Origin: Pseudobdellovibrionaceae bacterium | GTDB lineage: Bacteria > Bdellovibrionota > Bdellovibrionia > Bdellovibrionales > UBA1609 | Length of the DNA: 64,000 nt | Assembly (NCBI GenBank): GCA_023954155.1 | Contig: JAMLIO010000002.1 | Location: forward strand, 130,221 to 194,220 | Reading direction: 5' to 3' | In this document: positions 1,155 to 57,528 of the stretch, one piece after another | Numbering within the stretch: the stretch's first letter is position 1 | Layout: every line of letters starts with the position of its first letter | The notes under the pieces: generated by a model | What the model was told of the DNA's origin: nothing | The model's input: only the letters and a program-made list of their open reading frames with translations | Database searches by the model: none | Translations under genes and position numbers: made by a program

Positions 1155-1679
1155 ATGAGTGACAAACAAGTGCAAAACTCATTTTTACCCCGATTTATTG
1201 TGTCTGAGTTTAAAGACAGATCGGAGGTTGCAAATAAGGCAGCAACAGATAAAGCGGCCACGGATGAAGGGACCCAAGTTCTTCTTACCTCTGAGATGCT
1301 TCACTCTTTTAAAGATAATTTAATGTCAGCACCTCAAGTTGAATTGGGTGTGATCTGCTTTGAGAACGTTTCTGAAGAACCAGCTCTTGCAGAGATGCTA
1401 GATAAGTTAGTGATGGCAGTCAAACAGAACGATTATCAGATGTACCAATTTCCCAAAGAAGTTCAAAATAAAATCTCAGTAGACATGTTAGAGACCGCAC
1501 TGTCTGAAGTAGAGTCTTTGCCACATAATAAAATTTTAATCTTTGATTCCAAATCACAGAAAACCCAAAATAAAGACCTTGGAAACTGTAAACTGATCAC
1601 CACTTATGGACTGACAGATCTAAGCCAAAGTGTGCAGTATAAAAAAGACCTTTGGACCTTTTTGCAAAAGCATTTTTAA
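1155..1679 (+). CDS. hypothetical protein (174 aa)
   Basis: First ATG of the non-overlapping part of ORF 825..1679 (MSDKQVQNSF...). It begins immediately after the terminator T-tract and has no SD, so the start and even the coding status are uncertain. Confidence 0.45.
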   Translation: MSDKQVQNSFLPRFIVSEFKDRSEVANKAATDKAATDEGTQVLLTSEMLHSFKDNLMSAPQVELGVICFENVSEEPALAEMLDKLVMAVKQNDYQMYQFPKEVQNKISVDMLETALSEVESLPHNKILIFDSKSQKTQNKDLGNCKLITTYGLTDLSQSVQYKKDLWTFLQKHF

Positions 1680-1834
1680 AAAAATCTTTCTTACACACAA
1701 GCATAGTCATTGTCTCATCTGCAATAGGACTTGGAACTTTACTATATTCTGATTGGCGACTTTGGGCCAACGAATGAACGAGAAGTAAGCAAGCCTAAGC
1801 GAGTTTGTTTGAAAGGCTTATGGGATCGTCTGTA

Positions 1835-3307
1835 TTATTGTGCTCGACAGCTTTCCACACACTTTTCACCTGTGAGTGCCACTTTAAAAGTACTCATACA
1901 CTCAGAAGTCTTTTTGTGTCTGACGACTGACACCTCTGAGACATTAGGCTCAGAAATGCTTTTGAAGCGAGATTCACACAGAAACTTGGCATACTTTTCC
2001 ATTCCTGTTTTCATAGTGGGACTGGTGGGAAGGTAATAACTGGCTGTCATCATGTTTATCCCAATGGCATTATTTGTAGGACTGCTTTGAGCCAATTCAA
2101 AATCAAAATTGGCGGAAGTGATTTTGCTGCACTCACTTAAAGATTTGGCTTTGCGGATTCCTAGAGGGTCTTGCCCCGTTTTTGTAACTATAAAGATATG
2201 TCCTGAAGAGGCGACGACGTCACCGACAGCTAGATCTTCAGTTTTAGCTACAGCGATTTTTCTAAAGCAGGTTGTTCCACCACTACTAGGATTTTTAAAT
2301 CTTGCCGAATTGTAACTAAGAACATCACGGGCTTTAAGATTTACACTAGGGTTGAGTTTTAAGCCTGCTGTAGCTAGTGCTGTGAAAATAAATCCCGAAC
2401 AGTCAGTACCTAGAGCCGCAGATCCAGTCCCATGATTTTTAAAGAAGTTAAGTTCAGCATTGGCAGCCGCCGCCGAATAAGGTTTCCCGCCGTAATCATA
2501 AATCAGAGGGGAGTTGTAAGTAGAAAAGCAACTGGAGTCAGGTGTTCTTTGACTTAAATAGGGGTGAGTTCTTTGTACAGAGCTTAAACTAGAAATCACA
2601 CGCACATTTCCGCCCCCAGAAGAGTGGCGTCCTGTAACTTTGATTCCCTCTAAAGAGCTTTTTGAATTTTGAATTGTGGGTACATTTAAAGCCTCACAAT
2701 TTTGGTAAGCGGTGGCAAAGGTCTTATAGGTGCCAAAGATTTCTGGAGGATATTTATTTTGCAGTTGTTCAAATAAGGACCCTGCAATGGGCTCTTCGTC
2801 TGGTGTGCTGTCGTCTTGATCATTGGGAGTATCGTTACTGCAATTTTGTTGTAAGTTTTTTGATAACACTTGCAGTTCATTTAAGTGACTGCGAAAGGTG
2901 TCCTGAATGCTCTTTGTGGTTTTTGTCATTTGATCGCGAGTTTCAATGTGTGATAAAAGTTTTTTGATCTCTTCAATGTTTTCAGCGCCCAGTTTTTTTG
3001 GGAATTCAACAACAAGAGCTGTGTAAAACTCTTCAAATTTTACGATGATCTTTTGAATGTCTTCCTTGTGCTCTTCGTAGTTGTCTAGGGTGGTAAAGTC
3101 TTTTTGAAGTTGCTTCATCACCGCACTGACTTCGGGAAGCTTTTGATTTTCTTCTAAAGAGAGGTGAAGGATGTCAAACATCTGGGATTCAAACTGCTCA
3201 CAACTCATTTGGTTGGCTGCAATGCTGCTGAGTTGTTGAGTGTGCATGTCGTTCTGACAGGCTGCCAAAAAAAGTAAAAAAGTAGAATATCCGATGAGCT
3301 TTTTCAT
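1835..3307 (-). CDS. NlpC/P60-family cell-wall hydrolase lipoprotein
   Basis: Lipobox LFLAAC after the signal peptide. C-terminal domain has the NlpC/P60 catalytic Cys motif (GTDCSGFIF) and a downstream His (GDVVASSGHIFIV). Long helical N-terminal region of unknown function. Confidence 0.85.
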   Translation of the reverse strand: MKKLIGYSTFLLFLAACQNDMHTQQLSSIAANQMSCEQFESQMFDILHLSLEENQKLPEVSAVMKQLQKDFTTLDNYEEHKEDIQKIIVKFEEFYTALVVEFPKKLGAENIEEIKKLLSHIETRDQMTKTTKSIQDTFRSHLNELQVLSKNLQQNCSNDTPNDQDDSTPDEEPIAGSLFEQLQNKYPPEIFGTYKTFATAYQNCEALNVPTIQNSKSSLEGIKVTGRHSSGGGNVRVISSLSSVQRTHPYLSQRTPDSSCFSTYNSPLIYDYGGKPYSAAAANAELNFFKNHGTGSAALGTDCSGFIFTALATAGLKLNPSVNLKARDVLSYNSARFKNPSSGGTTCFRKIAVAKTEDLAVGDVVASSGHIFIVTKTGQDPLGIRKAKSLSECSKITSANFDFELAQSSPTNNAIGINMMTASYYLPTSPTMKTGMEKYAKFLCESRFKSISEPNVSEVSVVRHKKTSECMSTFKVALTGEKCVESCRAQ

Positions 3308-3557
3308 ATATATCCCATCGTGTAAGCCCGACTAACGCCTGAGCTTAAAAAATCTGTAATGCCCACAGTCTGGACTATAGTTGAGGGTATAAAGGACTAT
3401 AGGTTTGAATCTCAAGGTTTTTTGACCAACTCCTAAACAAATCACAACAGCAGTTTAGACTCATATTACGTCTCAAACTGATACAACTGTCGTCATCATG
3501 TTTTTCACAATACATACTCTCCTCTGTACTTCCATCCTTCCTCTTTCTTTTGGAGAC

Positions 3558-3693
3558 GGCGCGGGGTTGGCCGTTTGGTTTTATATGTTCGAAATGCGAG
3601 TTCGGCTTGGCGTAGTTTTGCGAACGCAAAGCTATGCCAAACGTTATGTCTGAGCATTTTGAACATATAAAACCAAACGGCCAACCCCGCGCC
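3558..3693 (+). repeat. long hairpin repeat element, copy A (conserved ~72-nt core inside a 33-bp perfect outer stem)
   Basis: 3558-3590 is the exact reverse complement of 3661-3693. The core 3589-3662 is near-identical to 56565-56639. Nested inner 15-bp stem 3607-3621 / 3626-3640 with a GAAC loop. Confidence 0.85.
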
Positions 3694-3761
3694 TGTTGGT
3701 CTTTTTAAGGAGTGTCTACAAATTGGACGGTTTTTTGAGGCTGTCTAAAAAAATATGATAG

Positions 3762-4797: not shown

Positions 4798-5688
4798 ATG
4801 TTACATAATATTTCTATGCTTGCATTTTGGTCTGAATTTTTTGAAGAGTTGGAGTTTGTAAGAGGGCGATCGAAAAATACGATTCAATCTTACCGTAGGG
4901 ATTTAGAACTTTACGAGTCTTTTTTAAAAAAGCATAAAGACATTCATTACTTTTATGCTTTTATGAAGGGTCAAGGCCTCAGTGATAGATCACAAGCTAG
5001 AGTGATCAGCAGTTTAAGAACCTATTTTAAGTTTTGTGAGTCTAAGGGTAAGGACTCCCCAGAACTTCGTTCCTTAAAGTTACCTAAAGTCAAAAAGACC
5101 ATACCCAAAACTATCACGCCAGCACAGTTTGAGATGCTCTTTCAAGCGGCTGCCGTCCCACAAGAGACACTTAAGACTGAACGTAATCAATTGGTCTTAC
5201 TTTTACTTTTTGGCCTAGGCTGTAGGGTGACAGAGTTAATTCAGATCGAACTTAATGATGTGGATTTACAAGAAGGTTATGTCAAAATTTTAGGTAAGGG
5301 AAATAAGGAGCGGCTTGTCCCTTTAACAGAGAGTTTACTTACCAAAGTGAAAGTCTATCTTGAGGAAGCAAGACCAAGTTTGGTTAAAAACAAAACCGTG
5401 AAGACTCTTTTGGTGAATGAAAGAGGGAAGGCCTTATCTCGCATAGACATTTGGAGATGGTTGGCGGCATGGTCTCAACGTGCAGGCTTTAAAGAAGTGA
5501 TACATCCCCATCAATTGCGCCATGCCTGTGCTACAACCCTGTTGGAGCAAGGAGCAGACCTTAGAAGTATTCAAATTTTGTTGGGACACACTTCTATCCA
5601 GACCACTCAAGTGTACACTCAGGTCACTACCAGGAAGCTAAATAAAGAAGTGGATGCTAAGCATCCACTTTCTCACTATAAAGACTAG
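4798..5688 (+). CDS. xerD: tyrosine site-specific recombinase, XerD/XerC family
   Basis: N-terminal SAM-like domain (RSKNTIQSYRRDLELY). C-terminal catalytic motifs (GCRVTEL, HQLRHACATTLLEQGADLRSIQILLGHTSIQTTQVYTQV). Alternative ATG at 4816. Confidence 0.88.
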   Translation: MLHNISMLAFWSEFFEELEFVRGRSKNTIQSYRRDLELYESFLKKHKDIHYFYAFMKGQGLSDRSQARVISSLRTYFKFCESKGKDSPELRSLKLPKVKKTIPKTITPAQFEMLFQAAAVPQETLKTERNQLVLLLLFGLGCRVTELIQIELNDVDLQEGYVKILGKGNKERLVPLTESLLTKVKVYLEEARPSLVKNKTVKTLLVNERGKALSRIDIWRWLAAWSQRAGFKEVIHPHQLRHACATTLLEQGADLRSIQILLGHTSIQTTQVYTQVTTRKLNKEVDAKHPLSHYKD

Positions 5689-5715
5689 CGTTAGGTTCTC
5701 TTTTTATTGCGCTTA

Positions 5716-5985
5716 CTATGCGCGAATAGATTTACGGATTTCTGCTTCTGATTGATCTAACAAAATAGTCAACAGCTTAGCTTTTGGAATCTTAGTAAGC
5801 TTAATGATTTTGCCTACATGATCCATTCTTGGGCTGCACAGACCGCGCTCCCAGTTGCTGATGAGTTGCTTGTTTACTCCAAGTGCATTCGCAAGTTCGC
5901 TTTGGCTTAAGCCTGCTTTGATGCGATGGTCTTGGAAGAAGCGTCCGATTTTTCTTGAGTATGGTAATGCTATTTTTGTTTTCAT
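5716..5985 (-). CDS. XRE-family helix-turn-helix transcriptional regulator
   Basis: HTH_XRE signature LSQSELANALGVNKQLISNWERG. Start taken at the internal ATG (MKTKIALPY); the ORF extends to 6021. Confidence 0.85.
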   Translation of the reverse strand: MKTKIALPYSRKIGRFFQDHRIKAGLSQSELANALGVNKQLISNWERGLCSPRMDHVGKIIKLTKIPKAKLLTILLDQSEAEIRKSIRA

Positions 5986-6203
5986 ACGTATCAAGGTAAC
6001 GTCGTAAAAAATAAATGTCACGTAAATTTGTATAAAAAATCTTACTTGAGAATGAAATCACAAAATATGAAGAAATTTAGATAAAATGTTGTCAAAGATA
6101 AAACAATTAGAGACGCGCTTTATTTACTGAGATCAAAAATCGGACCGTTCTCCGCGAGAGGATAGATTTACGATAACATAATAAGCATAAAGTTTGCTTT
6201 CCA

Positions 6204-7649
6204 GTGTTCATGAAAATTTTTGCGTTAAATACTTCTGCATACGGTGACTCTTGGGTCGAAATTGAAATCAATCTCATTCCTGGTCTTCCGCGTTTTTCCA
6301 TTATAGGACTGCCTGACACGGCTTTGAAGGAGGGTGTACTGCGAATCAAGTCGGCTCTTTTGGCGCATGGTTTTGAGTGGCCAAAAAATAAAGAAGTGAT
6401 CATCAATCTTAAACCTATCAATAGTAAAAAGTGGAATCAGAATATTGAACTCGCAATTTTAATTTGTTTTTTGCATGTGACACAGCAAATTAAACTCAAG
6501 TCCAGCTTTAATGATGATGATTCTCTATTAGTGTTGGGCGATCTGAATTTAATGGGACAAACCACTTTGTCTAAAGATATTTGTGCACGCACGTTCACAA
6601 ATTGGAAAGGTAAAATTCTAACTGGTTGCGTTCTGGAACCAGTGTTGTTCGATCACTATGTGATTGAACATATCGGGCAATTAAAAAATGCAGCTTTGTC
6701 TTTTCATAAAAAAGCATCCTTGCAAGAGATCATCAGACGCCCTCCATCCGATCGTTTTTTATGGACGCAAGAAGAAGCTAGGCTCATCAGTCTTTTGGCT
6801 TTGGGATCTTTTTCGGCTTTGCTTGCAGGAGTAAAAGGTGCTGGCAAAACAACTCTTGTTAAGGAAGTGTGGCGACTTTTACCTGCGCCGAACGAACATG
6901 AGTTTGAAGAGATCGGGATGCAGTCCAAGCAGTGCCCTGAGTGGCGCCCTTTGGTTTTTCCTCATCACACCATGCCTAGGGTGTCGTTGATTGGCGGAGG
7001 TGTTCCTCTCAAGATGGGTGAAGTGGGGCGCGCGCATGGGGGCATTATGGTGTTAGATGAATTTCTGGAGTTTAAAAAAGAAAGCATAGAGGTTTTACGT
7101 GAGGCCATGCAATCAGAAGAGGTGGAAGTTTCTAGGTTAGGGCAGACCCATAAATTTAAGACAAGGTTTCAAGCTTTGGCGACAACTAATCTTTGTCCTT
7201 GTGGGAAGTGGTCAGGACAAGAAGGGCATTTTGTAAATTGCTCTAGAAGCCTTATGACTTGTAAGTCCTATATCAATCGGATGATTGGCCCCGTGATGGA
7301 TCGGTTTCATATTTTATGGTTAAAGCCGTATCGGATTAAAGGAGATGCTCAAACAATATGCAGCGATGATATTTTAAGAGGGCTCGAAGAGGCTAGAGCG
7401 TGGAGGGCTAAGAGACCTTGGGGAGATCGGGCGTGCAATAAACTTTTGGTTTCTGAGGTTCAGGGTATGTTGACCAAAAGGTGGTTAAAAGACGTTTACG
7501 TTTTTGAGGGCCAATCGGAGCGACGCCAACAGGCGTTTTGGCAGGTGGCCAGAGCTTTAGCCGATTTGGATATGGTGGAGCGTATCGGGGAAAAGCACAT
7601 ACGTGAGGCTTACAAATGGACCTGTTTGGACTTTGGAACCTTGCTGTAA
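6204..7649 (+). CDS. comM: YifB/ComM-family Mg-chelatase-like AAA+ ATPase
   Basis: N-terminal Lon-like ChlI domain (IPGLPRFSIIGLPDTALKEGVLRIKSAL). Walker A GVKGAGKTT. Walker B GGIMVLDEFLEF. The ATG at 6210 is an equally good start. Confidence 0.85.
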   Translation: MFMKIFALNTSAYGDSWVEIEINLIPGLPRFSIIGLPDTALKEGVLRIKSALLAHGFEWPKNKEVIINLKPINSKKWNQNIELAILICFLHVTQQIKLKSSFNDDDSLLVLGDLNLMGQTTLSKDICARTFTNWKGKILTGCVLEPVLFDHYVIEHIGQLKNAALSFHKKASLQEIIRRPPSDRFLWTQEEARLISLLALGSFSALLAGVKGAGKTTLVKEVWRLLPAPNEHEFEEIGMQSKQCPEWRPLVFPHHTMPRVSLIGGGVPLKMGEVGRAHGGIMVLDEFLEFKKESIEVLREAMQSEEVEVSRLGQTHKFKTRFQALATTNLCPCGKWSGQEGHFVNCSRSLMTCKSYINRMIGPVMDRFHILWLKPYRIKGDAQTICSDDILRGLEEARAWRAKRPWGDRACNKLLVSEVQGMLTKRWLKDVYVFEGQSERRQQAFWQVARALADLDMVERIGEKHIREAYKWTCLDFGTLL

Positions 7650-7718
7650 TTTACCTTGATACAAGGCGGGGGACCTGATAGTTTCATGAGACCATTCGGT
7701 GCAAAAAAAGTTCCTAAG

Positions 7719-7792
7719 GGTGGCGTAGCCAAGTGGTTAGGCAGCGGCCTGCAAAGCCGTCTACGCCGGTTCGAGTCCGGCCGCCACCTCCA
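7719..7792 (+). tRNA. tRNA-Cys (anticodon GCA), CCA encoded
   Basis: Acceptor stem GGTGGCG/CGCCACC. Anticodon stem-loop GCGGC-CTGCAAA-GCCGT. T-arm GCCGG-TTCGAGT-CCGGC. Discriminator T followed by CCA. 74 nt. Confidence 0.95.
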
Positions 7793-55528: not shown

Positions 55529-55606
55529 ACTTTGTTGCCATCCTGCACTAATATAAGGATTTGAGGATGATGCGTATTACAAAAACGCATAATGGAGGCT
55601 AAAATC

Positions 55607-56509
55607 ATGAATATTCAGCAATTAGCAACGTTTTGTACGGTCGTCAGCGAAGGAAGTATGACTGCTGCGGCTGAAAAACTGTTTTTGACTCAGCCCGCAG
55701 TGAGCCAACAGATCCGAAACTTAGAGGATGAAGTCAATTGTGAGCTTTTGGTTAGGGGTGTGCGTAGCGTTAAACCGACCCTGCAAGGGCAGCTTTTATA
55801 TGATTACGCTAAGCGCATTTTGCATCTGACAGAGCAAGCCGAAGTGGCTTTGCAGGCCATGTCCAACGAACTTTCAGGTGAAATCCGCATTGGGACCTTA
55901 AACTCTTTGGGACTTTACCTTATCAGCCCTGTCATTGGTCTGTTTATGAAGCACAATACAAAACTTAAGATCAAATTGATTTATGGCTCGATCCATAACC
56001 TAGTGAAAGACTTAGATGAGGATCAGTTAGATGTTCTTATTTTGCCAGAGCCTACTTTTGAAGTTTCAGATAAATTTAAAAGCTTAGGTAAAAAGTTTTT
56101 AATGACAGATGAAATGTGGCTGGTAGGTTCAGGTCGTGACTCGTCTTTACCACAAAGAGTGGCTTTAAAAGATTACGTTGCCAATCAAGTGATCTATTTC
56201 ACCGACAAGTACGTCGGATTCCAAGCCCAACTTGATGAACATCTCAAAGCTCAAGGTTTAAAATTAAACCCCATTTTTGAATCCGATAACGTAGGTACAT
56301 TAAAACGAGTGATCGAAACTGGCCTAGGCTGGGGCTTCTTACCCGCTCACAGCATTAAAAAACAAGTACGCACAGGCCGCCTAAGTAAAATCATGGTGGA
56401 AGACGTCCGCTTTAGCACATCTGTAAACATGTATTATAAAAACACAAAAGAAGTGAACGATATTGTTGAGGTGCTTTTCCGCGCCGTCCGCCAACAAGCC
56501 CTAAACTAA
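55607..56509 (+). CDS. LysR-family transcriptional regulator
   Basis: ATG at 55607 with GGAGG SD. HTH MTAAAEKLFLTQPAVSQQIRNLE. LysR substrate-binding domain. Confidence 0.9.
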   Translation: MNIQQLATFCTVVSEGSMTAAAEKLFLTQPAVSQQIRNLEDEVNCELLVRGVRSVKPTLQGQLLYDYAKRILHLTEQAEVALQAMSNELSGEIRIGTLNSLGLYLISPVIGLFMKHNTKLKIKLIYGSIHNLVKDLDEDQLDVLILPEPTFEVSDKFKSLGKKFLMTDEMWLVGSGRDSSLPQRVALKDYVANQVIYFTDKYVGFQAQLDEHLKAQGLKLNPIFESDNVGTLKRVIETGLGWGFLPAHSIKKQVRTGRLSKIMVEDVRFSTSVNMYYKNTKEVNDIVEVLFRAVRQQALN

Positions 56510-56521
56510 AACACCAACTGA

Positions 56522-56682
56522 GCCTCTTGCGCTTGGTCTTTGGGTTGTATTTTTTTATATATGGTCGAAATGCGAGTTCGGCTTGGCGTGCTTTTGCGAA
56601 CGCAAAGGCATGCCAAACGTCACTGTCTGAGCATTTTGAGTATATATAAAAAAATACAACCCAAAGACCAAGCGCAAGAGGC
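56522..56682 (+). repeat. long hairpin repeat element, copy B (same core, 41-bp perfect outer stem)
   Basis: 56522-56562 is the exact reverse complement of 56642-56682. The core 56565-56639 matches 3589-3662. Fills the gap between the convergent LysR and ppsR stop codons. Confidence 0.85.
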
Positions 56683-56685
56683 GGC

Positions 56686-57528
56686 TTAGAATAGAGGATC
56701 CATGCTTTTGCCGAGACGGGCGGCGACGATGCGGGCGACTTCTGCGGCTGTTTCTTCTAAGGCGCGGTCGGTGACGTTGACGATCGGCCAGCGTCTGTTT
56801 TTTTTGAAGATGTCGTTGGCGTAATCTAATTCTTTTTGGATATGATCTAGATTTGCGTATTCGCCGCCTGGGTCTTGGCCGAAGTTTTCTAGGCGTTTGC
56901 GGCGGATCAGGTGAAGTTTGTCTTCGTTAATGGTGAGGCCCACAATCTTTCGTTGATCGACTTCAAAGAGTTCATCTGGCAGTGATGTTCCTAAAACCAG
57001 AGGGATATTTGCAACCTTCCAGCCTTTATGACTTAAAAATATAGAAAGTGGAGTTTTGCTGGTGCGGCTGATACCCACCAAAATGATATCGGCTTTGTCT
57101 AGTTGAGATAAAGTTTTGCCATCATCATGCCTTACAGTAAACTCAATGGCTTCGATGCGTTTAAAATACTTATCATCAACAGTACGTAAAAGTCCTGCTT
57201 GCAAATGTTCGCGTTTTTGCAGATCAAAAAATAAGTCCAATTGCTCTAAGACAGGGCCTAAGAGGTCTACACTGGGTACATTCAAGGATTGAGATAAATT
57301 TTGGATGAGTTCTCGCATGCTTTTGCTCACAAGCGTGTAAACCACAAAACCGTTTTCTTCCTTCACCTCTTCCATCGTGCGTTCGATTTGAGAGGGGCTT
57401 CTGACGTTTTTGACACGAATGATCTTAATGTCTGAGTTATGGTACTGCACAAGAGCGGCCTGTAACATACTCATGGCCGTTTCACCTGTTCCGTCAGAAA
57501 GCACATAGATTTTTTTATTTTGTATCAT
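56686..57528 (-). CDS. ppsR: pyruvate,phosphate dikinase / PEP synthase regulatory protein (kinase-pyrophosphorylase, DUF299)
   Basis: YVLSDGTGETA, RHDDG and ILVGISRTSKTPLSIFLS (P-loop) match the PpsR/YdiA family. Confidence 0.9.
   Translation of the reverse strand: MIQNKKIYVLSDGTGETAMSMLQAALVQYHNSDIKIIRVKNVRSPSQIERTMEEVKEENGFVVYTLVSKSMRELIQNLSQSLNVPSVDLLGPVLEQLDLFFDLQKREHLQAGLLRTVDDKYFKRIEAIEFTVRHDDGKTLSQLDKADIILVGISRTSKTPLSIFLSHKGWKVANIPLVLGTSLPDELFEVDQRKIVGLTINEDKLHLIRRKRLENFGQDPGGEYANLDHIQKELDYANDIFKKNRRWPIVNVTDRALEETAAEVARIVAARLGKSMDPLF

What the first reader, a model, noticed from the sequence alone, without database searches (positions are those of the whole stretch)
56522..56682. Hairpin element copy B: compensatory base-pair changes and strand-specific G-T wobbles point to a plus-strand structured RNA
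Compared with copy A, the inner stem shows a double compensatory change. Pairs a3614-t3633 and g3615-c3632 become g56590-c56609 and c56591-g56608, while 25, 16, 11 and 15 nt of flanking core are identical. The only unpaired variable spot is in the 3' side of the internal loop (tat versus cact).

All non-Watson-Crick positions in both copies are G-T on the + strand (for example g3591/t3660, g3612/t3635, t3616/g3631; g56567/t56637, g56588/t56611, t56592/g56607). They would be C-A mismatches on the other strand. This favours a functional + strand RNA over a symmetric DNA element.

The 41-bp outer stem here is perfect yet differs from the 33-bp stem of copy A. This copy fills the space between the convergent LysR and ppsR stop codons but has no 3' U-tract, so it is not a canonical intrinsic terminator.
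Basis: seen in the sequence. Interest (0 to 1): 0.65.

Follow-up and report, generated by a model that had tools for sequence, protein, structure and literature searches.

The report
Mobile hairpin repeat with copy-specific arms
The 161-base hairpin between the LysR and ppsR genes is one copy of an undescribed, many-copy, probably mobile repeat of Bdellovibrio-like bacteria, with a conserved folded centre of about 75 bases and long perfect inverted-repeat arms that differ in every copy.

Summary
Window 56522-56682 folds into a 161-nt hairpin (-110.6 kcal/mol, z -16) and shares a ~75-nt core with copy A (3558-3693), but the two have different perfect arms.

More copies confirm a strand-specific fold. 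Three helices covary, and a 4-bp helix that nobody had noted (TCGG/YYGA) varies only between G-C and G-U. The + strand of the core folds better than the - strand.

It is not a single-copy RNA gene. In four metagenomes 55, 10, 105 and 1 contigs carry the core, at 40 to several hundred times the summed depth of the flanks, and almost all have other arms. Relatives lack the element at both window loci: in one the ppsR and LysR stop codons overlap. Rfam, phage, plasmid and viral collections give no match.

Best reading (0.55): a non-autonomous mobile palindromic element whose core is recognised as a folded single strand. Its arms, perfect Watson-Crick and free of wobbles unlike the core, are made or kept identical by DNA copying such as fold-back or template switching.

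RNA or single-stranded DNA as the active form is unresolved. Some variant cores occur in wastewater metatranscriptome contigs. There are no conserved terminal repeats and no direct target duplication, so it fits neither MITE nor REP definitions. It is a new variant of a known kind.

The parts
56522..56682 (+). Copy B, the whole 161-nt hairpin element
   Evidence: Sequence; fold -110.6 kcal/mol, z -16; inverted repeat I1; absent from the same site in L015-L018.
56522..56549 (+). Distal 5' arm, copy-specific, G+T-rich; pairs perfectly with 56655-56682
   Evidence: Other copies diverge from B at or inside 56550/56654; summed contig depth falls from ~270 (X1) or ~2000 (X5) in the core to 8.9 (X1) and 11.8 (X5) at 56549-56552; the whole 5' arm is 76% G+T, top 0.4% of windows.
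56550..56564 (+). Proximal 5' arm (TTTTTTTATATATGG), shared with some other copies; pairs with 56640-56654
   Evidence: The X2 copy and the X6/X7/X8 copy match B up to 56551/56653 and 56550/56654 and then have unrelated arms that are exact reverse complements of each other over the 18 and 30 letters shown.
56565..56639 (+). Conserved 75-nt core: P1 (56565-56573 with 56631-56639), bulge GAGT, P2, 3' internal loop, P3 hairpin
   Evidence: Alignments A1, A4, A5; covariation; 55, 10, 105 and 1 contigs in X1, X2, X5 and X6.
56578..56581 (+).
   Evidence: Paired in 6 of 6 sequences; three of four pairs vary only G-C to G-U or C-G to U-G; predicted independently by RNAalifold.
56583..56616 (+). P3 inner hairpin (15 bp, loop 56598-56601)
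   Evidence: different stem sequences with kept pairing in L001 and L003a.
56588..56592 (+). Variable patch, 5' side (partners 56607-56611): the only core positions that vary among more than 100 contigs
   Evidence: T>C at 56589 with A>G at 56610; G>A at 56590 with C>T at 56609; C>A or C>G at 56591 with G>T or G>C at 56608; G>A at 56588 and 56607 turn wobbles into A-T; the major type has T56590 opposite C56609.
56617..56626 (+). 3' side of the internal loop (ACGTCACTGT); holds the only unpaired difference from copy A
56655..56682 (+). Distal 3' arm, copy-specific, perfect complement of 56522-56549
56509..56518 (-). GTTGGTGTTT flank motif just outside hairpin B
   Evidence: The pattern GTTGGTSTTT occurs only twice in the window, each time within 4 nt of a hairpin end, but on opposite sides relative to the core. 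At locus A the first six bases, with the preceding T, TGTTGG, are also present in the empty site of L141.
3558..3693 (+). Copy A, whole hairpin (arms 40 nt, 98% complementary)
   Evidence: absent from L141 and L142.
3695..3704 (+). GTTGGTCTTT flank motif just 3' of hairpin A
55592..56509 (+). LysR-family regulator gene, ends 12 nt before the hairpin
   Evidence: Pfam HTH_1 and LysR_substrate on the orthologue.
56686..57528 (-). ppsR (PEP synthase regulatory kinase/phosphorylase), stop 3 nt from the hairpin
   Evidence: Pfam Kinase-PPPase; homologues.

Best explanation
Copy B is one insertion of a small non-coding, non-autonomous mobile element family of Bdellovibrio-like bacteria.

The conserved ~75-nt core, plus a variable length of proximal stem, is the part that is copied and recognised. 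It is recognised as a folded single strand of + polarity. Its conserved bulge and loop nucleotides and three helices are probably the binding site of a trans-acting enzyme that was not identified.

The long outer arms are not a conserved part of the element. They are produced, or kept identical, at the DNA level by copying one arm from the other. This could happen through fold-back priming at insertion, or through replication template switching that extends and homogenises a palindrome. That would explain why every copy has its own perfect arms.

When an insertion lands at a gene end it is co-transcribed. The resulting RNA would carry a ~40-bp perfect duplex, a likely RNase III substrate or transcription roadblock. 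That is a side effect, not the reason for conservation.

Shown: repeat family, many copies, absence from orthologous sites, strand-specific covarying core, copy-specific perfect arms, no direct target duplication.

Inferred: mobility mechanism, single-strand recognition by a protein, origin of the arms.
For: 1. Copy number. The core alone has summed contig depth ~200-300 in X1, where the flanks have 3-7. In X5 it has ~1,600-3,000 against ~4. It is carried by 55, 10, 105 and 1 contigs in X1, X2, X5 and X6.

2. Spread. Further copies lie in two other Bdellovibrionota MAGs, L001 and L003 (two copies in L003).

3. Presence/absence.
- L015 and L016 (PpsR 98% identical) have overlapping ppsR and LysR stops.
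- L017 and L018 (96%) have an unrelated 41-nt spacer.
- Locus A is empty in L141 and L142.

4. Arms.
- They are unique per copy and perfect: 41/41 in B, 40 nt at 98% in A, 46 nt at 98% in L001, 45 nt at 93% (perfect over ~37 bp) in L003a.
- Two more copies are seen as exact reverse-complement loose ends.
- The arms have no wobbles, while the core stems have 2-3 each.

5. Decay. L003b has a short mismatched stem and a ~70-nt insertion.

6. Core fold. Covariation and strand asymmetry.

7. Damage at a gene end. In L001 the 3' arm replaces the conserved C-terminus (GREIPxWLSARRF) of the neighbouring oxidoreductase with 7 arm-encoded residues.

8. Orientation. The core is flipped relative to the GTTGGTSTTT flank motif in A versus B.

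9. Precedent. Template switching between inverted repeats is known to homogenise arms, extend them and invert the spacer (PMC8604942, PMC3820800, PMC7202029).

10. Polarity. The + strand has GC skew +0.08 across the window, so the foldable strand is probably the lagging-strand template.
Against: - No transposase, RAYT, reverse transcriptase or HUH gene was seen, but only 64 kb and short contigs could be examined.
- There is no direct target-site duplication (p 0.46-0.94 in 4 copies) and no conserved terminal repeat, so the chemistry is unlike that of known bacterial transposons.
- The relatives with empty sites are about 19% divergent in ppsR DNA. Precise loss, or another history of the site, cannot be excluded, and the origin of the arms could not be traced. 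Similarities of the arms to the empty-site sequences are not significant (p 0.1-0.2).
- The 5' arms of A and B are unusually G+T-rich. Neither random flank copying nor neutral drift predicts this.
- Depth ratios mix strains and species, so copies per genome are only an estimate.
Confidence: 0.55

Rival explanations
1. A family of functional structured + strand RNAs. Each copy would be transcribed, alone or in a 3' UTR. The conserved core would bind a protein or RNA. The long perfect duplex would be processed by RNase III, or would stabilise or terminate the upstream mRNA. Conservation would be due to this RNA function.
For: - Covariation and + strand-only wobbles.
- B, L001 and L003a abut gene 3' ends.
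- Variant cores occur in metatranscriptome contigs at depth 10-26 in X13, a run with no contig on the adjacent mutS2.
- One RNA contig runs into adapter sequence 7 nt into the 3' arm, which may mark a defined RNA end.
- Transcripts of Correia elements are cut by RNase III at their inverted repeats (PMC10969869).
Against: - Selection on RNA pairing would tolerate G-U in the arms, yet the arms have none.
- Selection does not explain unique arms next to near-identical cores in more than 100 contigs, with both paired and unpaired core positions invariant apart from one 5-bp patch.
- Copy A lies between divergent genes, with no promoter-like site nearby.
- There is no U-tract and no Rfam match.
- The RNA contigs carry no strand information and may include DNA carry-over.
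- Insertions are absent from close relatives and damage a gene end in L001.
Confidence: 0.2
2. An ordinary cut-and-paste MITE. A transposase of an undetected insertion sequence would bind the double-stranded inverted ends. The arms would simply be fast-diverging terminal repeats of many old sublineages.
For: - Small, non-coding, intergenic, many copies, insertion polymorphism.
- A short proximal stem (T-run plus ATATATGG) is shared by a subset of copies.
Against: - The outermost 20-30 bp, where a transposase would bind and cut, are unrelated between copies.
- There is no direct target duplication.
- Copies diverge from B at many different symmetric distances from the core, so there is no fixed end.
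- The conserved part is the asymmetric centre, which has strand-specific pairing.
Confidence: 0.1
3. Host recombination or replication sites rather than selfish DNA. The hairpins would be single-stranded-DNA sites, analogous to attC or REP, that are used by a domesticated recombinase or serve chromosome functions. New copies would arise rarely.
For: - The same structural evidence as for the best explanation.
- The foldable strand is probably the lagging-strand template.
- A XerC/D-type tyrosine recombinase gene lies 1.1 kb from copy A.
Against: - The recombinase has the ordinary Xer domain pair and sits in a housekeeping neighbourhood.
- Copies are absent from orthologous sites in relatives, and one disrupts a gene end.
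- No attC-type R/L boxes are present.
Confidence: 0.1
4. An invertible switch. The arms would serve as inverted repeats for flipping a promoter-bearing core.
For: The core has opposite orientation relative to the flank motif in A and B.
Against: No promoter-like site in or near either copy. The arms are not conserved, as an invertase would require. The ~80-bp invertible segment is very short. No strand-switching joints were seen, although contigs are uninformative here.
Confidence: 0.03

Closest known systems
REP / REPIN elements mobilised by RAYT transposases (PMC3116915, PMC3337134)
   Same: Short non-coding intergenic repeats in tens to hundreds of copies. They form hairpins, are thought to be recognised as folded single-stranded DNA, and are non-autonomous.
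   Different: REPs have conserved stem sequences with a GTAG or CGTC tag (PMC3733652) and a variable spacer between two inverted REPs. Here the centre is conserved and the arms are copy-specific. No RAYT gene was found in the DNA available.
Prokaryotic MITEs such as Correia, ERIC, RUP and BOX (review PMC10969869)
   Same: Size of 100-200 bp, long hairpin when transcribed, insertion next to genes, strain-to-strain presence/absence, possible RNase III processing, reported inversion of Correia elements.
   Different: MITEs are defined by conserved terminal inverted repeats and direct target-site duplications. Neither is present here.
Integron attC sites
   Same: Structure rather than stem sequence is conserved. 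One strand folds. Unpaired or extrahelical bases are the recognition features.
   Different: attC sites are conserved at the base (R and L boxes) and variable at the apex, which is the opposite layout. They sit at cassette boundaries next to an integron integrase. Their stems are imperfect.
Quasipalindrome template-switch mutagenesis (PMC7202029, PMC3820800, PMC8604942)
   Same: A known DNA-level process that makes imperfect inverted repeats perfect, extends identity between arms and inverts the spacer. These match the features seen here: perfect arms, and the core flipped relative to the flank motif.
   Different: It is a mutational process, not an element family. Systematic 20-45-bp extension around a mobile core has not been described, to my knowledge.
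Intrinsic (rho-independent) terminators
   Same: A hairpin placed at the 3' ends of convergent genes.
   Different: The stem is 50+ bp rather than 5-15 bp, the centre is a structured 75 nt, and no U-tract follows the stem on either strand.

Membership tests
Prokaryotic MITE | Small, non-coding, many copies, mostly intergenic | tested here: met
   161 and 136 nt. The open reading frame through the core changes frame between copies. There are 55-105 core-bearing contigs per metagenome. All 5 located copies are intergenic or at gene ends.
Prokaryotic MITE | Terminal inverted repeats whose sequence is shared by the copies | tested here: not met
   Arms of A, B, L001 and L003a are unrelated (arm A versus arm B p 0.11). 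Depth of shared sequence decays to about 3% (X1) and below 1% (X5) of the core value by 56549-56552.
Prokaryotic MITE | Direct target-site duplication | tested here: not met
   The best 8-mer direct matches between 16-nt flanks are no better than in shuffles in 4 copies (p 0.46-0.94).
Prokaryotic MITE | Presence/absence polymorphism at orthologous sites | tested here: met
   B is absent in L015-L018. A is absent in L141 and L142. The relatives are about 19% divergent in ppsR DNA.
Prokaryotic MITE | A parent insertion sequence with the same ends | not testable with these tools
   The source genome is not available beyond 64 kb. No transposase was found among the ORFs checked.
REP/REPIN-RAYT | Conserved 20-40-nt palindrome with a GTAG or CGTC tag at one end | tested here: not met
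   No conserved tag is seen by inspection of alignments A4 and A5. GTAG occurs only in copy A, inside the variable patch.
REP/REPIN-RAYT | Two inverted REPs around a variable spacer | tested here: not met
   The layout is reversed: conserved centre, variable arms.
REP/REPIN-RAYT | A single-copy RAYT (Y1 HUH) gene flanked by the repeats | not testable with these tools
   This needs the whole genome. None was seen among the ORFs and neighbouring genes checked with Pfam in the window and loci.
Integron attC | R''/L'' and L'/R' boxes (RYYYAAC ... GTTRRRY) at the base of the hairpin | tested here: not met
   The flank motif GTTGGTC/G matches GTTRRRY at 6 of 7 positions on one side only. There is no RYYYAAC partner on the other side.
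Integron attC | Location at cassette boundaries next to an IntI integrase | tested here: not met
   The neighbours are housekeeping genes. The nearby recombinase shows the ordinary Phage_int_SAM_1 plus Phage_integrase pair. An IntI-specific insertion was not examined.
Intrinsic terminator | Short G+C-rich stem followed at once by a U-tract | tested here: not met
   No terminator-like site ends at the hairpin. The tails are GGCTTAG on the + strand and TCAGTTGG on the - strand.
Any Rfam family | Covariance-model match | tested here: not met
   The only gathering-score hit in the window is a tRNA. At E up to 10 only a weak CRISPR-DR55 hit (E 7.1) lies beside the element. Nothing was found in L001 or L003.
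Structured RNA or single-strand element (generic) | Base pairs kept by compensatory change, with strand-specific wobbles | tested here: met
   15 pairs change on both sides (0 of 500 shuffles reach this). P2 is 100% paired with only one-sided changes to or from wobble pairs. The + strand is more stable than the - strand.
Structured RNA (generic) | Transcription from the + strand | tested here: inconclusive
   No RNA run holds the window organism. Variant cores occur in RNA-library contigs without strand information.

The most novel reading that the evidence does not exclude
The element spreads by a chemistry not described for bacterial mobile DNA. Only the core, with a ragged piece of proximal stem, would be transferred as a single strand. 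Its own terminal helix would then prime fold-back synthesis. Each insertion would thereby create a 20-45-bp inverted, not direct, duplication or a newly synthesised G+T-rich tract, giving every copy a private perfect palindrome.

The GTTTGG/CCAAAC motif shared by the core and some arms would then hint at templating from the core itself.
Probability: 0.15. Interest if true: 0.85.

Novelty: new variant of a known kind. Interest (0 to 1): 0.55.

Why it matters
Small palindromic repeats such as REPs and MITEs are among the least understood components of bacterial genomes. All described families are defined by conserved ends.

This family turns that layout inside out: a conserved asymmetric centre that folds on one strand, and private perfect arms.

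If the arms are made at insertion, this would be a new way of integrating DNA. If they are made afterwards, it is a natural system in which palindrome extension and homogenisation by template switching can be watched at dozens of loci.

It also matters in practice:
- These elements break short-read assemblies of Bdellovibrio-like genomes at every copy. Most short contigs fetched for the two loci ended in or next to the hairpin.
- They place ~40-bp perfect duplexes into the 3' ends of mRNAs.
- In at least one case the element has rewritten the end of a gene.

Tried and rejected
1. Known RNA family: rejected. Rfam gave nothing relevant at gathering score or at E up to 10.

2. Collection scans.
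- The exact 19-mer scan of genome contigs gave 3 real copies and 2 chance hits in coding DNA.
- The gapped-pattern scan of metagenome contigs gave only 2 chance hits.
- Viral contigs gave 119+ chance hits of a 15-mer, none with the 3' half, and 0 hits of a gapped pattern.
- My patterns were too strict. RNA contigs later showed variant loops (GAGTTTTGGA, CAGCTCGGC) that they would miss.

3. Small protein: rejected. ATG CGA GTT ... opens a reading frame, but the indel shifts the frame between A and B, and the variation is compensatory in stems.

4. Arms as captured foreign DNA (spacer-like): no phage match for four arms. The core has no match in phage or plasmid collections.

5. Arms copied from the local target. 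By eye, the L017 spacer and 10 nt of L141 resembled one arm, and arm A resembled arm B. Shuffles give p 0.15, 0.23 and 0.11, so nothing can be claimed.

6. L141 as a deletion remnant versus an empty site: two alignments are about equally good. Left open.

7. Direct target duplications seen by eye: not significant.

8. L008 (identical PpsR protein) as a second element type downstream of ppsR: the region is neither LysR nor a recognisable copy, and the contig ends there. Dropped.

9. More copies in relatives' longer contigs: nhmmer with a core profile found none in L012-L021 or L141-L149, and no long inverted repeats in L012, L015, L017, L018 or L021. Contigs that hold copies probably break there, so this says little.

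10. Closer empty site for L001: the flanking oxidoreductase has no relative above 42% identity.

11. Promoter or inverton reading: no promoter-like sites.

Full report
**1. What is there**

Window 56522-56682 is a 161-nt hairpin.
- A perfect 41-bp outer stem (56522-56562 with 56642-56682) leads through a G-T and a G-G position into a 9-bp helix, P1 (TCGAAATGC with GCATTTTGA).
- P1 leads to an asymmetric internal region and a 15-bp apical hairpin, P3.
- Folding energy is -110.6 kcal/mol against -40 +/- 4 for shuffles (z -16). The complementary strand reaches -96.4.

Copy A (3558-3693) shares the central ~75 nt almost exactly, with identical runs of 25, 16, 11 and 16 nt.
- Its arms are different and equally good.

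These two are the only long inverted repeats in 64 kb.

**2. It is a repeat family, not a pair**

A 19-mer from the core found three more copies in two Bdellovibrionota MAGs: L001 (Pseudobdellovibrionaceae) and L003 (Bdellovibrionaceae, two copies). It also found two chance hits in coding DNA.
- L001 and L003a again have long inverted-repeat arms, perfect or nearly so, that are unrelated in sequence: 46 nt at 98% and 45 nt at 93%, the latter perfect over ~37 bp.
- L003b is a decayed copy with a short mismatched stem and a ~70-nt insertion in the 3' half.

Laying metagenome contigs on the locus shows the copy number.
- In run X1 the flanking genes have depth 3-7, while the core sums to 200-300 from 55 contigs.
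- In X5 the flanks have ~4 and the core 1,600-3,000 from 105 contigs.
- Shared sequence falls away symmetrically outside 56565-56640. By 56549 and 56653 it is down to about 3% (X1) and below 1% (X5) of the core depth, so nearly all copies have other arms.
- Two further copies can be read from loose ends. TGGGTCTTGGGGTGGGGA before 56551 pairs with its exact reverse complement behind 56653. TTAAACTTTAAGAGTTTTGAATTTAAGTCT before 56550 pairs with its exact reverse complement behind 56654.
- Copies leave B's sequence at many different but symmetric distances from the core (56568/56638 out to 56550/56654). There is no single fixed end.

**3. It is absent from the same sites in relatives**

Contigs that encode PpsR proteins 98% and 96% identical to the window's show the ppsR-LysR junction without the element.
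- In L015 and L016 the two stop codons overlap.
- In L017 and L018 there are 41 unrelated bases.
- The window has 176 nt there, 161 of them the hairpin.

Locus A is likewise empty in L141 (neighbouring protein 85% identical) and L142 (78%).

These relatives are not very close: ppsR DNA is ~81% identical. This dates the insertions only loosely. It also prevented me from deciding whether either arm existed before insertion. The resemblances I saw by eye are not significant.

Contigs of the same strain all end inside the hairpin, which is a practical consequence for assembly.

In L001 the 3' arm supplies the last 7 codons and the stop of the convergent FAD oxidoreductase. That protein lacks the C-terminal GREIPxWLSARRF that all its homologues keep. 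The element, or the growth of its arms, has overwritten a gene end.

**4. The core is a strand-specific fold**

On six sequences (A, B, L001, L003a and two variants read from RNA-library contigs) the structure P1-P2-P3 is 85% paired.
- 15 pairs change on both sides, against 6.7 +/- 1.8 in shuffles (0 of 500 shuffles reach this).
- It clearly beats versions of the structure slid by 1-3 columns.
- RNAalifold finds the same helices on its own.

- It is paired in all six sequences.
- It varies only between G-C and G-U or between C-G and U-G. Those are exactly the changes allowed on the + strand and forbidden on the - strand.

The + core is more stable than the - core by 4.5-10.4 kcal/mol in five of six sequences with RNA parameters, and in six of six with DNA parameters.

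Among more than 100 contigs, positions varying in at least 3% of depth are confined to 56588-56591 and 56607-56610 in the middle of P3, and to 56598 and 56601 at its loop.
- Two-sided changes occur at matching frequencies: T>C with A>G, G>A with C>T, C>A with G>T, and C>G with G>C.
- One-sided changes turn wobbles into A-T pairs.
- The commonest type nevertheless carries T opposite C at 56590/56609. L001 and L003a have an internal loop or tandem G-A at the same place. This spot is a tolerated irregularity rather than a strictly paired position.

**5. Why I read it as mobile DNA rather than an RNA gene**

The core stems contain wobbles. The arms, 33-46 bp long, contain none. Selection on a folded RNA would not distinguish the two, whereas templated DNA synthesis would.

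Near-identity of cores, in loops and stems alike, across 100+ contigs next to unrelated arms is what recent copying of the core gives. It is not what long purifying selection at fixed loci gives.

Together with the presence/absence data, a decayed copy and a damaged gene end, this points to a non-autonomous mobile element.

The element fits no described family.
- It has no conserved terminal repeats and no direct target duplication.
- It has no REP-type tag, no attC boxes and no Rfam match.
- It has no match in phage, plasmid or viral collections.

A known process could make and maintain the arms. Replication template switching at inverted repeats homogenises arms, extends identity between them and inverts the spacer (PMC8604942, PMC3820800, PMC7202029).

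Spacer inversion would also explain an oddity. The motif GTTGGTSTTT occurs only twice in the window, each time within 4 nt of a hairpin, but on opposite sides relative to the core. At locus A the first six bases, with the preceding T, TGTTGG, are also present in the empty site of L141, so the motif may mark a preferred target.

**6. RNA or DNA as the active single strand remains open**

- No RNA library holds the window organism.
- For L003's relatives, wastewater RNA-library contigs carry variant cores with their own short complementary flanks, at depth 6 (X9) and 10-26 (X13). In X13 the adjacent mutS2 region has no contig.
- One of these contigs runs into adapter sequence 7 nt into the 3' arm, a possible defined end.
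- Contigs have no strand, and DNA carry-over cannot be excluded.
- The + strand of the window has GC skew +0.08 throughout. The foldable strand is therefore probably the lagging-strand template, as for elements that move as single-stranded DNA. Two copies prove nothing.
- If transcribed, a 41-bp perfect duplex is an obvious RNase III substrate, as shown for Correia elements (PMC10969869). I regard that as a consequence of the element, not its cause.

**7. Unexplained**

- The 5' arms of A, B and the X2 copy are strongly G+T-rich (0.81, 0.76, 0.89). A and B are in the top 0.3-0.4% of windows of the same length.
- Because the arms are palindromic, the G+T-rich strand runs towards the core on both strands.
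- The arms of A and L003a contain GTTTGG, the complement of the CCAAAC in the core.
- Neither random flank copying nor drift predicts any of this. It is the main reason to keep open a more unusual mechanism in which the arms are synthesised de novo or templated by the core.

**8. Verdict**

- The element is best described as a new kind of small palindromic mobile repeat in uncultured Bdellovibrio-like bacteria.
- Interest is moderate to high for people who work on bacterial repeats and palindrome dynamics.
- The decisive data are closed genomes of close strains and strand-specific RNA. Both are obtainable.

Noticed in passing
window 4798-7789: About 1.1 kb downstream of copy A lie a XerC/D-type tyrosine recombinase (4798-5688), an HTH_3 regulator (5716-6021, - strand), a ComM/Mg-chelatase-like ATPase (6204-7649) and a tRNA gene (7719-7789). 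In the relative L141 the gene after the 270-aa lipoprotein is instead a 2,328-aa protein, so synteny breaks here. This may be an island border at the tRNA.
   Followed up: partly
L003 371-551: The 245-nt stretch between the two inverted copies L003b and L003a is covered by a metatranscriptome contig (X13, depth 10, a related strain), while in the same run the neighbouring mutS2 is not. It has no Rfam match. It may be an unannotated small RNA bracketed by two elements.
   Followed up: partly
L003 150-345 (- strand): Degenerate copy L003b: intact 5' half and P3, then a ~70-nt insertion that contains its own 10-bp hairpin (CTCAAATCGC/GCGATTTGAG) before the 3' core motif. Its outer stem is only ~18 bp with mismatches.
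   Followed up: partly
L001 5303-5348 and gene 5325-6440 (- strand): The convergent FAD-dependent oxidoreductase ends in 7 residues (SNSELFD) encoded by the element's 3' arm. It lacks the C-terminal GREIPxWLSARRF conserved in homologues of 36-42% identity.
   Followed up: yes
L008 1370-1518: This contig encodes a PpsR protein identical to the window's (DNA 89% identical). After the stop it has neither LysR nor the element, but an unrelated AT-rich stretch followed by a GC-rich hairpin-like sequence. The contig ends there.
   Followed up: partly
window 3558-3588 and 56522-56563: The 5' arms are G+T-rich (81% and 76%, top 0.3-0.4% of windows of the same length). The arms of A and L003a contain GTTTGG, the complement of CCAAAC in the core.
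   Followed up: partly
window 1-64000: GC skew is positive (+0.07 to +0.10) in every 8-kb block and G+C is 41%. The whole window probably lies on one replichore with the + strand as leading strand.
   Followed up: no
window 3375-3629 (- strand); also L003: Mechanical ORFs run through the element (84 aa across copy A; 67-97 aa across the L003 copies). Gene callers are likely to annotate such ORFs as hypothetical proteins.
   Followed up: no
L007, L009, L010, L011, L013, L014: Short-read contigs fetched for the two loci are short. L007, L009, L010 and L011, from the same strain, stop inside the hairpin, and L013 and L014 stop within ppsR just before it. The repeat systematically fragments assemblies, which probably hides it from MAG-based surveys.
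   Followed up: partly
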